Source of the DNA: Candidatus Poribacteria bacterium
Lineage (GTDB): Bacteria; Poribacteria; WGA-4E; JAJDTR01
Direction: 5' to 3'
DNA length: 64,000 bases
Assembly (NCBI GenBank): GCA_965232235.1
Contig: OZ246960.1
Location: 3,405,397 to 3,469,396 of the forward strand
The position numbers and the translations under genes were made by a program. The notes below the pieces were generated by a model. The model saw only the letters and a list, made by a program, of their open reading frames with translations. It was not told the DNA's origin and ran no database searches. This document shows positions 9,129 to 49,128 of this stretch, one piece after another; positions within the stretch are counted from its first letter, which is position 1; every line of letters starts with the position of its first letter.

Positions 9129-9364
9129 CCGGTAGGTGCGATTAAGTGACCGAATCGGATCAAACGAGTGAATAGCGAGTGCGATAGAAATCCTAAAACG
9201 AGTGAATAGCGAGTAATCAAGTGAGTGGACAACGAACGCGATAGAAATCCCATAGAGATTCCCCAAACGAGCGGATAGCTCAAGTGAGTGAATAGCGAAT
9301 GCGATGGGGATCCTAGTGCGATAGTAGATTTCGCGCGATAGAGATCCCTTTCTAACCGCGCCGG
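9129..9364. repeat. GTAG-type REP-like hairpin split by a nested stack of ~35-bp micro-elements (9141-9347)
   Basis: Flanks rejoin as CCGGTAGGTGCG|CTTTCTAACCGCGCCGG. Intact units at 9159-9193, 9216-9250 and 9279-9313, plus split halves. Confidence 0.85.
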
Positions 9365-40956: not shown

Positions 40957-41913
40957 TTATGAAGCCTGAGGATGCATTAGGATTTTGAGCGACGGCTCTG
41001 GTCCGCGCGTTGTTTCTATGGCTTTGGCGAATTCGGCAAGGGGGAAATGATGGCTGATGAGGTCCACGAGCTCTACGCGCTTCGCTTTTGCAAGTGCCAA
41101 TGACCTCTCGAATTTGTTGCCGAGTGAGTATGCCCCGATTATCTTTAGTTCACGCCGGAAAATATCATAAGGCTCGACTCCCATGATGGCACCAGGCGAA
41201 GCGAATCCAAACACTAATACCGTACCTCGCTCAGCGGTGAAACCCAGGAGCCGTTCTTGGGCTTTGGGATTCCCTGTGGCGTCAATTGTCAAATGAAATC
41301 CGTCGGGATGCGTGGCAAGAAGCTGTTCCTTGAGATCTTTGCCTACGATAATGGTCTCGTCCGCACCAAGTTCTTTGGCTTTGGCAAGTTTTTCTTCCAC
41401 GACATCCGTGACTGTAACCGAGAGCGCTCCAGATAGTTTTGCCACTTGTAACATTAACAAACCGATGGGGCCCGCACCGGCTACAAGCACCTCATCGCCC
41501 AAAGTAACCCTTGCGCTGTCAATAGCGTGGACGATACAGCCAAGAGTTTCTATCAGCGCACCTTCATCGTAGGTGAGATCGCCCAAGGGGTGAGCCCGTG
41601 ATGCGAGAACTGCAACGTAATCTTCAAATCCACCGGCGGTCAGAGTCCCATATCCAACTCCCGACGGATTGACCGTCACGCGGTCGCCCAGGCTGTGAGT
41701 GGAGACATTCTTCCCAATTTCAACGACATCTCCGCAAAATTCATGACCGGGAATGACCGGAAGCACACCAAACTCCCCTTTGAGGATGTGAATGTCGCTC
41801 CCACAGATTCCAGCCGATCGAACATTTAGCAAGATTTCATCGTCACGGAGTTTCGGGATTTCTCTGGTACCGACTCGTATAGTCTCAATATCGTCAATGT
41901 AAACGGCTTGCAT
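40957..41913 (-). CDS. Zn-dependent MDR alcohol/polyol dehydrogenase, paralog 2
   Basis: GICGSD, GHE, ETLGC, GAGPIG. Collinear with paralog 1. Start at 41913 by alignment. Confidence 0.92.
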   Translation of the reverse strand: MQAVYIDDIETIRVGTREIPKLRDDEILLNVRSAGICGSDIHILKGEFGVLPVIPGHEFCGDVVEIGKNVSTHSLGDRVTVNPSGVGYGTLTAGGFEDYVAVLASRAHPLGDLTYDEGALIETLGCIVHAIDSARVTLGDEVLVAGAGPIGLLMLQVAKLSGALSVTVTDVVEEKLAKAKELGADETIIVGKDLKEQLLATHPDGFHLTIDATGNPKAQERLLGFTAERGTVLVFGFASPGAIMGVEPYDIFRRELKIIGAYSLGNKFERSLALAKAKRVELVDLISHHFPLAEFAKAIETTRGPEPSLKILMHPQAS

Positions 41914-42234
41914 TCTGTCACCTTTCATGTGCGACAGCCACGGGTGATTAGTCAAAAAAATAATGCTGCTTTTTGGAATGTTCTGCGGGCAACATATCTA
42001 GAAGTTCCATATCTTCAATAGGGAAACGCCCGGATATTTTCTCCGAAACAAGCTTGAAATCACCGGTGGTGTTGAAGTTTTTTTCGTTTCGTCGTCCGTC
42101 CTGTCCATCGTTTTCGTACGCTTCTGAATCGGCAAAAAAATTCATCAACCATACAGTTTTCAGTTGCTCGGTTCGAATATTTCTCCGTTCCCGATTTTCT
42201 TAGATCCTGGTGAAAAGTACATTTGTCGGGTGCG

Positions 42235-42386
42235 ATCAAAGGAGCGAAAAGCAATCGACCGAATGATTAGGGAGGGATCAAGTGAGTGAATAACGAACGA
42301 TCAAACGAGCGGATCGCGCGTGCTATAGAAATCCCGATAGAGCTCCCATAGAAAATCCCCTGCGATAGAGTTCCCATAGAGATTCC
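42235..42386 (+). mobile_element. Nested stack of ~35-bp micro-elements (at least four deep)
   Basis: Left halves start at 42235, 42254 and 42277. An intact unit spans 42300-42334. Right halves follow at 42335, 42347, 42359 and 42375. Confidence 0.8.
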
Positions 42387-42738
42387 ACAGGTATATATCA
42401 GACAACACTAAATACATGACGAAACTTCCCACAAATGATTAAATATGATTTTGCTGCCGACTATTCAAACAGCCTCTTAAGGGGATTGAAATGTAGTTGC
42501 ATTTTTATTTAAATTCGATTAGGTAATTGAGCCAAATGCCTTGCAACTTTGCCAAGCCTGCTTGTTGAACATTGTCCAGTCAATCAACGTTCAGAATACG
42601 CGATAATGATAGCATTGTCAAGATATTTCATCTTGTATTACGCTCAAAGTCGTGTATAATAAAATTGGAGGGTTAAGGGGCATTTACCACACCCCGTGCA
42701 GAACTATCGTTCGTTCATTGAAGAAAAAGAGGGGCATC

Positions 42739-48609: not shown

Positions 48610-48745
48610 ATGTCAAATTCCTCCTATTGTTGAAAATACCAATGTTGTAGTTTTGTTGATCTTCCACCTATTTCTATCGTCGATGTTATCTTGATTGACT
48701 CCTTAAACAGAATCAAACGAACATCCTTCTGCCTTCAACCTATAC

Positions 48746-48994
48746 TTAAAACCTGTTTGAATAATCAATGGGAAAGCCACTGTTGGTCAGTTGTAGGAAT
48801 TTTTTCAGGTTTTTATTCTTATATGCTACATACCTGATGCCCCGCTGGGGCTTAGGTGCACGGGGTTCTGGTGTTTCTATACACCTTCAAGATTTCTATC
48901 GCACTCGCTATTCACTCGTTTGATCCCCTCTGGGGCTTTTAGAGGCTGGTGAGCAGTGCGCCCCCTACGAATGTCCTTTTCAAACAGGTTCTTA
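48746..48994. mobile_element. MITE-like element with terminal inverted repeats enclosing two REP-like hairpins
   Basis: TTAAAACCTGTTTGAA (48746-48761) and TTCAAACAGGTTCTTA (48979-48994) match 14/16 as an inverted repeat. No ORF. Internal units at 48826-48852 and 48877-48937. Confidence 0.6.
48890..48924 (-). mobile_element. Single 35-bp micro-element inserted in a REP-like unit
   Basis: Reverse complement ATCAAACGAGTGAATAGCGAGTGCGATAGAAATCT is 34/35 identical to 9159-9193. Removing it restores CTATACACCTTCACCCCTCTGGGGCT. Confidence 0.85.
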
Positions 48995-49128
48995 GTCAAA
49001 CCTACGATGACATGATGCTGATTTTTGTCCGTATCCCGGCTTGTAGGGCTTATGTGCAGGCAAACTGCTAACGCGAACGCAGAAGCAACACGGCTAAAAT
49101 CTTAAGGAAAGGTCGCAGGTTCCGTTGC

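What the first reader, a model, noticed from the sequence alone, without database searches (positions are those of the whole stretch)
42235..42386. Four-deep nesting with compensatory base pairs shows a conserved single-stranded hairpin
Seen: the order is left-left-left-[intact]-right-right-right-right. Rejoining halves from the inside out gives units in which positions 6-7 pair with 21-22 as AC/GT (42300), GT/AC (42277), CC/GG (42254) and AG/CT (42235). Positions 10-11/17-18 vary as GC/GC, GT/AC, GT/GC and, at 9141, CC/GG (the 42254 unit mismatches here). Mostly conserved GA/GA mismatches sit between the two stems and ATC/GAT closes the base. The innermost insertion splits G^CGAT with no duplication. 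Inference: selection on an ssDNA or RNA fold with tandem G.A pairs recognised by a mobilising enzyme. The stacks record insertion order.
Basis: partly seen in the sequence, partly recalled or inferred. Interest (0 to 1): 0.85.

Follow-up and report, generated by a model that had tools for sequence, protein, structure and literature searches.

The report
Self-nesting 36-base hairpin repeat, Poribacteria
The stack is real: four copies of a 36-base hairpin-forming repeat sit one inside another, and this repeat behaves like one of the smallest mobile DNA elements known, found here in sponge-symbiont bacteria rather than in the cyanobacteria where such elements were first described.

Summary
Observation confirmed. 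Window 42235-42386 holds four units of one repeat nested inside each other, plus one orphan tail.

The unit has three parts:
- a 23-nt head (ATCAA NN GA NN GRATA NN GA NN G);
- a CG;
- a 10-11-nt tail (ATAGARATCC[C]).

The genome is a Candidatus Poribacteria MAG and carries 1365 heads. Four base pairs (6:22, 7:21, 10:18, 11:17) covary strongly, and the GA/GA between them is about 95% conserved. G:T wobbles and the GA/GA show that the fold exists on one strand only.

Paralogous sites are either empty (G-CG-A) or filled by exactly 36 nt in place of the CG, with no duplication. Each unit recreates G-CG-A at its own centre, which explains the self-nesting. Outer units are more decayed than inner ones, so the stacks do record insertion order.

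The whole stack lies inside a roughly 274-nt TIR-bounded MITE that six congeners lack. A strain in another host has the same stack with point differences only.

The mobilising enzyme is not identified. IS200-like Y1 genes lie near units but do not co-distribute with them.

The closest known analogues are the cyanobacterial SDRs and REPs. I class it as a new variant of a known kind. This scan has already noted the family several times.

The parts
42204..42234 (+). Left arm of a roughly 274-nt MITE (degenerate TIR, then ...GTACATTTGTCGGGTGCG), ending at the G after which the stack begins
   Evidence: G005 lacks window 42202-42474 between conserved flanks. Family copies share the TIR GCCTGTTTGAA / TTCAAACAGGC.
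42235..42253 (+). Unit 1 (outermost with a head), head positions 1-19, split here by unit 2
   Evidence: The uninterrupted haplotype ATCAAAGGAGCGAAAAGCGACTGCGAT occurs 5 times in the genome. 42253 reads G in strain X7, giving the consensus G19.
42254..42276 (+). Unit 2 head (23 nt). Pair 10:18 is broken (A.G) in this genome.
   Evidence: In strain X7, 42263 reads C, which restores C10:G18.
42277..42299 (+). Unit 3 head (23 nt; pairs GT/AC and GT/AC)
42300..42334 (+). Unit 4, innermost and uninterrupted: head 42300-42322, CT (consensus CG) 42323-42324, 10-nt tail 42325-42334. It is inserted between G42299 and C42335.
   Evidence: 42324 reads G in X7 and in other contigs.
42335..42347 (+). Unit 3 CG plus 11-nt tail (ATAGAGCTCCC)
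   Evidence: Tail grammar.
42348..42358 (+). Unit 2 tail (ATAGAAAATCC). It follows unit 3's tail directly with no CG of its own, as in the majority type of tail-tail junction.
   Evidence: 139 of 241 tail-tail junctions have 11-nt spacing.
42359..42375 (+). Unit 1 remainder: head positions 20-23 (CCTG), CG, and 11-nt tail ATAGAGTTCCC
   Evidence: CT at 21-22 pairs with AG at 6-7 of 42235-42253.
42376..42386 (+). Orphan tail (ATAGAGATTCC) abutting ACAGGTA. This is the tail of the unit that canonical MITE copies carry at that site. Its head and the MITE segment before it are missing here (inferred deletion).
   Evidence: Canonical copies read ...CAGCGGGG-[head-CG-tail]-ACAGGTA.
42387..42477 (+). 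Right arm of the MITE, ending in the TIR ...TTCAAACAGCCTCT. It is multicopy in all 10 genomes of the genus.
   Evidence: 26 copies of at least 75 nt in G000
9141..9340 (+). Second stack of the same family: 4 PWM heads at 9159, 9193, 9216 and 9279, plus a split head at 9141
48889..48924 (-). Single unit of the family inside another copy of the same MITE (window about 48744-49000)

Best explanation
Window 42235-42386 is a pile of four copies of a 36-nt non-coding, non-autonomous insertion element of Candidatus Poribacteria. Each copy sits inside the previous one.

Shown:
- The unit is head (23 nt), CG, tail (10-11 nt).
- The head carries a one-strand fold of 2 bp, tandem G.A/A.G, 2 bp and a GRATA loop. 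The four pairs vary freely but stay complementary.
- The same site in paralogous repeats is either empty (G-CG-A) or filled with exactly 36 nt in place of the CG. There is no target duplication.
- The unit recreates G-CG-A at its own positions 23-26 (and at 17-20 in GC haplotypes). It is therefore its own preferred target, and copies pile up as head-head-...-tail-tail.
- Outer copies are more decayed than inner ones.

Inferred:
- The element moves as, or is recognised in, single-stranded nucleic acid of the sense strand. Only copies that keep the fold get copied, which is why pairing is kept while stem letters drift.
- The most likely agent is a trans-acting single-strand DNA (HUH/Y1, IS200/RAYT-like) transposase. 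I put about one chance in three on this class.
- The stack was built inside a MITE after this species split from its congeners and before its strains diverged.
For: Covariation:
- On 499 strict copies, 457, 475, 484 and 465 are paired, against shuffle means of 259, 308, 238 and 404.
- On 60 units, mostly from other MAGs, 96.6% of cells pair and 62 cells change on both sides. No shuffle of 500 reaches the observed values.
- On 1365 unforced heads, G8, A9, G19 and A20 are kept in 1292, 1316, 1287 and 1275.

One strand only:
- G:T is frequent at 6:22 (223) and T:G at 11:17 (272), while the pairs next to the GA are almost purely Watson-Crick.
- The reverse strand does not fold alike.
- With RNA parameters the minimum-energy fold is exactly the covarying structure.

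Insertion:
- Context A has 9 empty sites (8 CG, 1 TG) and 9 filled with 36 nt, carrying at least 6 head haplotypes. Context B has 7 empty and 3 filled.
- Replicated in loci of other MAGs: 16 empty CG sites and 4 filled in context A; 8 and 5 in context B.
- Replacing a unit by CG restores a host unit in 134 of 825 cases, against 5-7 in the controls run (those for the four 9- and 10-nt-tail rule variants). Host positions are 23 (66), 17 (43) and 10 (9).
- Tail number follows head number: two abutting heads are followed by two tails in 75 of 137 cases. A random-position control finds no tail in 1943 of 2000.
- The base before the unit is G in 752 of 1023 outermost heads.

Order of insertion: outer heads decay more than inner heads in 61 stacks, less in 35, p = 0.01.

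Dynamics:
- Six congeners have the locus empty and two carry other repeats there.
- The element is abundant only in two genera (10 of 10 and 4 of 4 genomes). The other 162 Poribacteria genomes searched hold 0-14 copies.

Intergenic: only 96 of 1365 heads lie inside crude ORFs that cover 80% of the genome.

Candidate enzyme: both strong Y1 genes of G000 have units within 250 nt on both sides. Across the genus, 10 of 13 Y1 loci have a unit within 350 nt.
Against: - No enzyme is tied to the element. Homologues of the Y1 protein occur in genera without the element (g6 7 of 7, g3 5 of 10). They were not found at E <= 1e-20 in 2 of 4 genomes of the second element-rich genus.
- Unit positions and orientations beside Y1 genes are not conserved.
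- The Y1 proteins score as IS200-type (70 bits, cut-off 55), not as RAYT (35 and 27 bits, cut-off 80).
- No head...gene...tail autonomous copy was found.
- There is no replichore orientation bias (p = 0.12), unlike what I recall for IS200/IS605.
- Folding energies are not better than shuffles. With DNA parameters the fold is not predicted at all.
- No insertion polymorphism was seen. The one other strain with a bridging contig has the same stack with 0 gaps.
- The right junction is not uniform, with spacings of 11, 12 and 13 nt.
- Many stacks are unbalanced, for example three heads with one tail.
- The stack could have arrived partly pre-built with the MITE.
Confidence: 0.7

Rival explanations
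1. The unit is a resident functional RNA or DNA motif, such as a terminator, a processing or stability site, or a protein-binding site of the BIME/BOX kind. Selection keeps it at each locus, and it spreads with larger repeats and by tandem duplication rather than moving by itself.
For: In intergenic regions between co-directional genes, units lie in the gene's orientation 326 times and against it 209 times. With RNA parameters the covarying fold is the minimum-energy structure. G:U-type wobbles are common. Some arrays are plain tandem duplications of identical 35-nt units. Units travel inside MITEs.
Against: 39% of units are antisense to the neighbouring genes. The same MITE site is empty or filled, and carries at least 6 different head haplotypes. 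Units interrupt one another, which destroys the host copy's head-to-tail continuity. Outer copies decay. No Rfam family matches. The element is confined to two genera in the phylum.
Confidence: 0.12
2. Heads and tails are two separate repeats that expand side by side through replication slippage or unequal recombination. On this view the head-run-then-tail-run order is not nesting.
For: Unbalanced stacks are frequent: two heads are followed by 0, 1 or 3 tails in 21, 25 and 15 of 137 cases. One MITE copy has three heads and a single tail. Heads and tails are direct repeats, which are prone to slippage.
Against: Unit 1 of the window is split inside its head, and its missing four bases plus CG and tail reappear exactly after three inner tails. 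43 host heads split at position 17 and 9 split at position 10 are restored by removing one whole unit. Neighbouring heads differ in their stem letters, so they are not slippage copies. No half-filled site (head only or tail only) is seen among the MITE-context sites.
Confidence: 0.06
3. The element moves through an RNA copy (reverse transcription at a nicked target), or through a tyrosine recombinase acting on folded single strands as in integron attC sites. It would not then move through an HUH transposase.
For: The fold is the minimum-energy structure with RNA parameters and not with DNA parameters. There is an orientation bias with transcription. The left junction is precise and the right junction variable. 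There is no replichore bias. Y1 genes do not co-distribute with the element.
Against: No candidate reverse transcriptase or integrase was examined here. The unit has no poly-A or other priming feature. Units lie beside Y1 genes in 10 of 13 loci in the genus.
Confidence: 0.12

Closest known systems
Small dispersed repeats SDR1-8 of Nostoc punctiforme and relatives (Elhai et al. 2008, Genome Res 18:1484). The paper is not held in the library. I saw only what citing papers say; the rest is recalled from its abstract.
   Same: Both are very small (tens of nt) dispersed intergenic repeats with a conserved predicted hairpin kept by compensatory changes. Both insert into other repeats and into copies of themselves without target duplication, and both have an unknown mobilising enzyme. 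SDR5 inserts at a fixed place inside a short CG-containing palindrome (passage seen in PMC4390886).
   Different: This family is in another phylum (Poribacteria). HIP1 is not enriched in this genome: 123 copies in 5.6 Mb. The unit is 36 nt, against 21-27 nt as recalled for SDRs. It has a head-CG-tail build, a tandem G.A motif, and a target that is replaced and recreated. Sequence relatedness to SDR1-8 could not be tested.
REP / REPIN elements with RAYT (Y1) transposases; the GTAG- and CGTC-tagged REP superfamilies (PMC3733652 and PMC3116915; abstracts and found passages read)
   Same: Both are short extragenic hairpin repeats in hundreds to thousands of copies, with sub-families that carry complementary stem changes and G:T pairs. 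They are clustered, species- or genus-specific in abundance, and Y1 genes lie nearby. This genome also holds classical GTAG-tagged palindromes, and the unit often sits inside them.
   Different: The unit has no GTAG or CGTC tag at its 5' foot. It begins ATCAA and has ATAG 3' of the hairpin. The stem is only 2+2 bp around a conserved G.A tandem. Units nest head-in-head instead of forming inverted doublets. Y1 homologues also occur where the element is absent.
IS200/IS605-family elements and their gene-less derivatives (single-strand 'peel and paste' transposition; recalled knowledge)
   Same: Recognition would be of a hairpin on one strand only. Insertion occurs next to a short specific target without duplication. 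IS200-type Y1 genes are present.
   Different: There is one hairpin rather than one at each end, and the target dinucleotide is usually lost. There is no replichore bias. No autonomous copy was found with the gene between head and tail.
Mosaic repeats: BIME of E. coli and BOX of pneumococci (recalled)
   Same: Intergenic repeats built from modules in variable number, sitting inside larger composite elements.
   Different: Here the module order is a bracket structure (heads, then tails in reverse order) produced by insertion into the centre of a previous copy. It is not a linear array.

Membership tests
Cyanobacterial SDR families (Elhai 2008) | Sequence matches one of the SDR1-8 consensus sequences | not testable with these tools
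   The paper is not held, and no cyanobacterial genome handle was available.
Cyanobacterial SDR families (Elhai 2008) | Tiny dispersed repeat with a conserved hairpin supported by compensatory changes | tested here: met
Cyanobacterial SDR families (Elhai 2008) | Copies found nested within copies of themselves | tested here: met
Cyanobacterial SDR families (Elhai 2008) | Length 21-27 nt and occurrence in Nostocales-type cyanobacteria (recalled from the abstract) | tested here: not met
   The unit is 36 nt and the host is Candidatus Poribacteria.
REP with RAYT (REPtron) | Conserved unpaired GTAG (or CGTC) tetranucleotide at the 5' foot of the palindrome (PMC3733652) | tested here: not met
   The unit starts ATCAA, usually preceded by G. 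ATAG lies 3' of the hairpin.
REP with RAYT (REPtron) | A RAYT gene flanked by the repeats, and co-occurrence of gene and repeat | tested here: inconclusive
   Units lie within 350 nt of 10 of 13 Y1 loci in the genus, at varying places and orientations, and beside 0 of 15 loci outside the two element-rich genera. Homologues are present in genera that lack the element. The proteins fall below the RAYT model cut-off and above the IS200 cut-off.
REP with RAYT (REPtron) | REPIN organisation: two inverted REPs forming a larger hairpin | not tested
   Only same-strand runs were analysed.
IS200/IS605-derived gene-less element | Insertion at a fixed short target without target duplication | tested here: met
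   The unit lands after G, at G-CG-A, with no duplication. The target CG is usually not retained, which differs from the family.
IS200/IS605-derived gene-less element | Orientation bias with respect to replication direction (recalled) | tested here: not met
   823 clusters split 204/194 and 241/184 by replichore and strand, Fisher p = 0.12.
IS200/IS605-derived gene-less element | A full-length parent with the transposase gene between the same ends | tested here: not met
   The 138 orphan head-to-tail pairs show no distance peak.
MITE (TIR plus target duplication) | Terminal inverted repeats and flanking direct duplication | tested here: not met
   The 36-nt unit has neither. The surrounding roughly 274-nt element does have TIRs.
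Known RNA families (Rfam 15) | Match at gathering score | tested here: not met
   0 matches in the 64-kb window

The most novel reading that the evidence does not exclude
This would be a 36-nt element near the lower size limit for site-specific mobile DNA. Its whole recognition signal would be a one-strand mini-hairpin with a tandem sheared G.A. It would integrate by swapping itself for a CG dinucleotide and rebuilding the same target at its own centre. That chemistry (precise left joint, loss of two target bases, no duplication) fits none of the described transposition schemes. It would point to an undescribed enzyme, or to an undescribed activity of Y1 proteins.
Probability: 0.3. Interest if true: 0.8.

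Novelty: new variant of a known kind. Interest (0 to 1): 0.55.

Why it matters
How repeats of only a few dozen bases multiply has, as far as I know, been open since the cyanobacterial SDRs were described. This family offers an unusually clean case for that question:
- over a thousand copies per genome;
- a four-pair covariation signal;
- an invariant G.A tandem that marks the active strand;
- empty and filled versions of the same sites;
- a simple target rule that explains the 'Russian-doll' stacks.

Together these give concrete oligonucleotides and candidate proteins for in vitro tests.

There is also a practical side. These units fill intergenic space and break short-read assemblies of Poribacteria genomes. 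In one search, contigs stop inside the stack in three of the four runs laid.

Tried and rejected
- Cyanobacterial origin. My first guess was a cyanobacterium, from the GATC/CGAT letters. It was rejected: HIP1 occurs 0 times in the window and 123 times in the genome, and record titles name Candidatus Poribacteria.
- Removing a fixed 35 nt per unit restored only 12 hosts. The boundary had to be redefined as 36 nt in place of CG.
- An autonomous parent (head...gene...tail) was not found.
- Replichore bias was not found.
- Viral contigs gave 0 matches.
- Rfam gave nothing.
- A literature search for Poribacteria plus repeat plus palindromic found 31 papers. The 15 listed are about CRISPR or general genomics (listing and abstract starts only). 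The Elhai 2008 paper could not be opened.
- Joints in laid contigs that skip 35, 63 or 122 nt have sides of at most 22 nt at 88% likeness. I take them to be paralogous units, not polymorphism.
- A hairpin ending exactly at the insertion point is enriched only modestly in upstream flanks: 84 at offset 0 against about 20-40 at neighbouring offsets, of 1023.

Full report
**What is at the coordinates**

One search shows, from 42235, four heads in a row followed by five tails.
- Heads: ATCAAAGGAGCGAAAAGCA (19 nt, cut short) at 42235, then three complete 23-nt heads at 42254, 42277 and 42300.
- Tails: CT-ATAGAAATCC, CG-ATAGAGCTCCC, ATAGAAAATCC, CCTG-CG-ATAGAGTTCCC and ATAGAGATTCC.

Read from the inside out:
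- Unit 4 (42300-42334) lies between G42299 and CG 42335-36.
- Unit 3 is 42277-42299 plus 42335-42347.
- Unit 2 is 42254-42276 plus 42348-42358.
- Unit 1 is 42235-42253 plus 42359-42375. Its missing head bases CCTG reappear exactly where nesting predicts, and CT pairs with AG at its positions 6-7.
- The last tail (42376-42386) has no head.

A head motif occurs 7 times in the window against 0.52 expected.

**The family**

The window lies in a 5.63-Mb single-contig genome with 50.4% G+C. Record titles of matching loci name Candidatus Poribacteria MAGs.

- A strict 27-mer pattern that leaves the stem letters free finds 499 copies (259 plus, 240 minus), of which 284 are distinct.
- A position-weight model finds 1365 heads at a threshold that admits 5 hits in the reversed genome.
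- These heads fall in 912 clusters of 1 to 8.
- Directly abutting heads occur as 1033 singles, 137 doubles, 18 triples and one quadruple, which is this window's.
- Only 96 of 1365 heads lie in crude ORFs that cover 80% of the genome.

**The fold**

On the 499 strict copies, pairs 6:22, 7:21, 10:18 and 11:17 are standard in 457, 475, 484 and 465 cases. Shuffle means are 259, 308, 238 and 404, and no shuffle reaches the observed values.

On the 1365 heads found without forcing any letter:
- the pairs are standard in 1125, 1130, 1231 and 1234;
- G8, A9, G19 and A20 are kept in 1292, 1316, 1287 and 1275.

An independent sample of 60 units was taken as 57 of the pattern matches listed (from loci L001-L040) plus 3 from the window.
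- 96.6% of cells pair against 80.2% in shuffles.
- 62 cells change on both sides against 12.8 in shuffles.
- The covariation score is 0.563 against 0.213 (0 of 500 shuffles as high).
- Slid partners give at most 48% paired.
- Caveat: the three ATC/GAT pairs were fixed by the search pattern and carry no information.

G:T at 6:22 (223) and T:G at 11:17 (272) are common, whereas the pairs that touch the GA are nearly pure Watson-Crick. Together with GA opposite GA, this means the structure exists only on the unit's sense strand. Double-stranded palindrome recognition cannot explain it.

The neighbours of the GA favour pyrimidine-GA-purine: 1203, 976, 988 and 1116 of 1365. From recalled NMR literature, this is the context in which tandem sheared G.A pairs form.

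Against a self-sufficient hairpin:
- With RNA parameters the minimum-energy fold is exactly this structure, but at -3.4 kcal/mol it is no better than shuffles.
- With DNA parameters the fold is not predicted.

The two stems assort almost freely (mutual information 0.27 bit against 0.06 for the null). There are 1029 distinct heads among 1365.

**How units sit in their targets**

Heads are followed by CG in 762 of 837 parsed cases. Tails come in two forms:
- a short form, ATAG-AR-ATCC, 446 cases;
- a long form, ATAG-NNN-ATCC, 185 cases.

The clearest evidence comes from paralogous copies of larger repeats.
- Between ...CAGNGGGG and ACAGGT there is either just CG (8, plus 1 TG) or exactly 36 nt of head-CG-tail (9, with at least 6 head haplotypes).
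- Between ...GGGG and GAAGGTGT there is CG (7) or 36 nt (3).
- The same holds in 0.9 Mb of loci from other Poribacteria MAGs: 16 CG against 4 filled, and 8 against 5. Those loci were chosen for holding at least one unit.

So the unit lands after a G and stands in place of the CG, for a net gain of 34 nt, with no duplication.

Applied to stacks, swapping a unit back to CG restores an intact host unit in 134 of 825 cases. The controls that were run, for the four 9- and 10-nt-tail rule variants, gave 5-7. The joint lies at host position 23 (66), 17 (43) or 10 (9); 15 more are tandem joins. Cutting out a fixed 35 nt restores only 12. Positions 23-26 of every unit read G-CG-A, and positions 17-20 do so in GC haplotypes. 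The unit is therefore its own target.

Upstream flanks of 1023 outermost heads end in G in 752. The commonest contexts are:
- GTAG-tagged palindromes;
- the 3' foot of a CCCC...GGGG hairpin;
- host heads;
- opposite-strand units.

The right joint is not uniform. Tail-to-tail spacing is 11 nt in 139, 13 nt in 86, 12 nt in 14 and 10 nt in 2 of 241 junctions. The window's unit 4 is of the rare 12-nt type.

**Nesting versus side-by-side arrays**

Tail number follows head number. One head is followed by one tail in 609 of 1033 cases, two heads by two tails in 75 of 137, and three heads by three in 6 of 18. Random positions give no tail in 1943 of 2000.

Unbalanced stacks are frequent, however. One MITE copy has three heads and one tail. 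I attribute these to later loss between direct repeats, which is an inference.

Outermost heads deviate from the constant positions more than innermost heads: mean 0.92 against 0.65, with 61 stacks against 35 of 156 (p = 0.01). Their stems are also unpaired somewhat more often, 44 against 27 (p = 0.057). This fits outside-older.

**Setting of this stack**

It lies between a minus-strand ORF ending near 41955-42148 and a plus-strand ORF starting at 42652.

- G005 runs from window 42202 straight to 42475.
- Five further congeners are likewise short and empty at this locus.
- G003 and G001 carry other repeats there.

The inserted block is a roughly 274-nt element with terminal inverted repeats, GCCTGTTTGAA / TTCAAACAGGC in canonical copies. 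At least 26 copies are in this genome, and it is multicopy in all ten genomes of the genus. A second copy with one unit is at about 48744-49000 and is also absent from the orthologous sites of the congeners.

Canonical copies carry one unit just before ACAGGTA. Here only that unit's tail remains (42376-42386), and the stack follows the left arm directly. A deletion has probably joined two unit-bearing sites (inference).

**Strains**

- The contig of run X1 matches 41500-42428 with 0 differences. X1 is probably the source sample.
- Run X7 comes from a different host label. It has a 4219-nt contig covering 41500-42429 with 12 substitutions and no gaps, so it holds the same four-deep stack.
- Four of the 12 substitutions lie in the stack: 42253 A>G, 42263 A>C, 42324 T>G and 42335 C>A.
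- The first three of these return the family consensus.

It is met only at about 1.3% divergence. Across species the locus differs completely.

**Distribution**

The strict pattern occurs 339-830 times in each of the 10 genomes of the genus and 119-142 times in each of 4 genomes of one genus of another family. It occurs 0-14 times in the other 162 Poribacteria genomes searched. The reversed-pattern control is 0 everywhere. It does not occur in IMG/VR.

**The enzyme**

G000 has four Y1_Tnp matches.
- The two strong ones, about 157 aa with a DHIHIL motif, have units within 250 nt on both sides.
- They score as IS200/IS605 transposases (70 bits, cut-off 55). They fall below the RAYT model cut-off.
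- In the genus, 10 of 13 such loci have a unit within 350 nt, at varying places and orientations.
- In the second element-rich genus, one of two loci has a unit, at +674.
- In 15 loci of other genera, none does.
- Homologues at 65-79% identity occur in genera that lack the element. None was found at E <= 1e-20 in two genomes that have it.

One Y1 gene is also flanked by inverted copies of a different repeat. Units may therefore simply have landed in the hairpin-rich surroundings of these genes.

No head...gene...tail parent exists. There is no replichore bias. Between co-directional genes, units lie with the genes 326 times and against them 209 times.

**Comparison with what is known**

The kind is known. 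From what I recall of the abstract, Elhai et al. 2008 described 21-27-nt SDRs in Nostoc with a shared, compensated secondary structure and self-nesting. A passage in PMC4390886 confirms that SDR5 inserts at a fixed place inside HIP1. REPs show complementary stem sub-families, G:T pairs and Y1 partners (PMC3733652 and PMC3116915; abstracts and passages).

What I did not find in print for Poribacteria is any such repeat (15 of 31 listed papers seen as titles and abstract starts). I could not read the SDR sequences.

Earlier notes of this scan on this genome and on other Poribacteria genomes describe the same family in similar terms. They are not independent evidence.

**Verdict**

Mobility is supported by empty and filled sites, but no insertion in progress was seen. 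The enzyme is open. I class this as a new variant of the SDR/REP kind.

Noticed in passing
window 42204-42477 and about 48744-49000: A roughly 250-274-nt TIR-bounded MITE family (TIR GCCTGTTTGAA / TTCAAACAGGC) is multicopy in all ten genomes of the genus. Both window copies are absent from the orthologous sites of congeners. The flanks at the first copy read TTAG / TAAG.
   Followed up: partly
window 9141-9340: A second, more scrambled stack of the same units. It has a head split after position 18, two complete units, and a head beginning CTAAA / CTCAA after a tail. It sits inside another repeat that ends CTTTCTAACCGCGCCGGCACC. G003 carries a similar composite at the 42.2-kb locus instead.
   Followed up: partly
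G000:C1 about 5103990-5104790 (locus L135): An IS200-like Y1 gene (P0002) is flanked by inverted copies of a different hairpin repeat (CACTCCAGMGGAGTGA...ATGTCAATAG). Units of the 36-nt family are often found inserted into that repeat elsewhere, after ...CCAGCGGAG.
   Followed up: partly
G000, many sites, e.g. C1 about 1009965-1012600 and 1029066: At least three GTAG-tagged palindromes of the classical REP type occur often as hosts or neighbours of the units: GTAGGGTGCGCACYGCGCACC, GTAGGGGCGCGGTTCCCGCGCCC and GTAGGAGCGACCTCCCGGTCGCGA.
   Followed up: no
G000:C1 about 1.6477 Mb, minus strand (entry -3978259): A plain tandem array of three near-identical 35-nt units plus a fourth, more diverged head. 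Later copies begin CTCAA instead of ATCAA. This shows that tandem duplication also contributes to clusters.
   Followed up: no
window 42263 and 42324 in run X7: A sister strain from another host label carries C at 42263 and G at 42324. This restores a stem pair and the CG of two units that are degenerate in this genome.
   Followed up: yes
genome G066 (another genus) and G146: These are isolated genomes with 14 and 5 strict copies, in genera whose other members have 0-1. This could reflect recent transfer or bin contamination.
   Followed up: no
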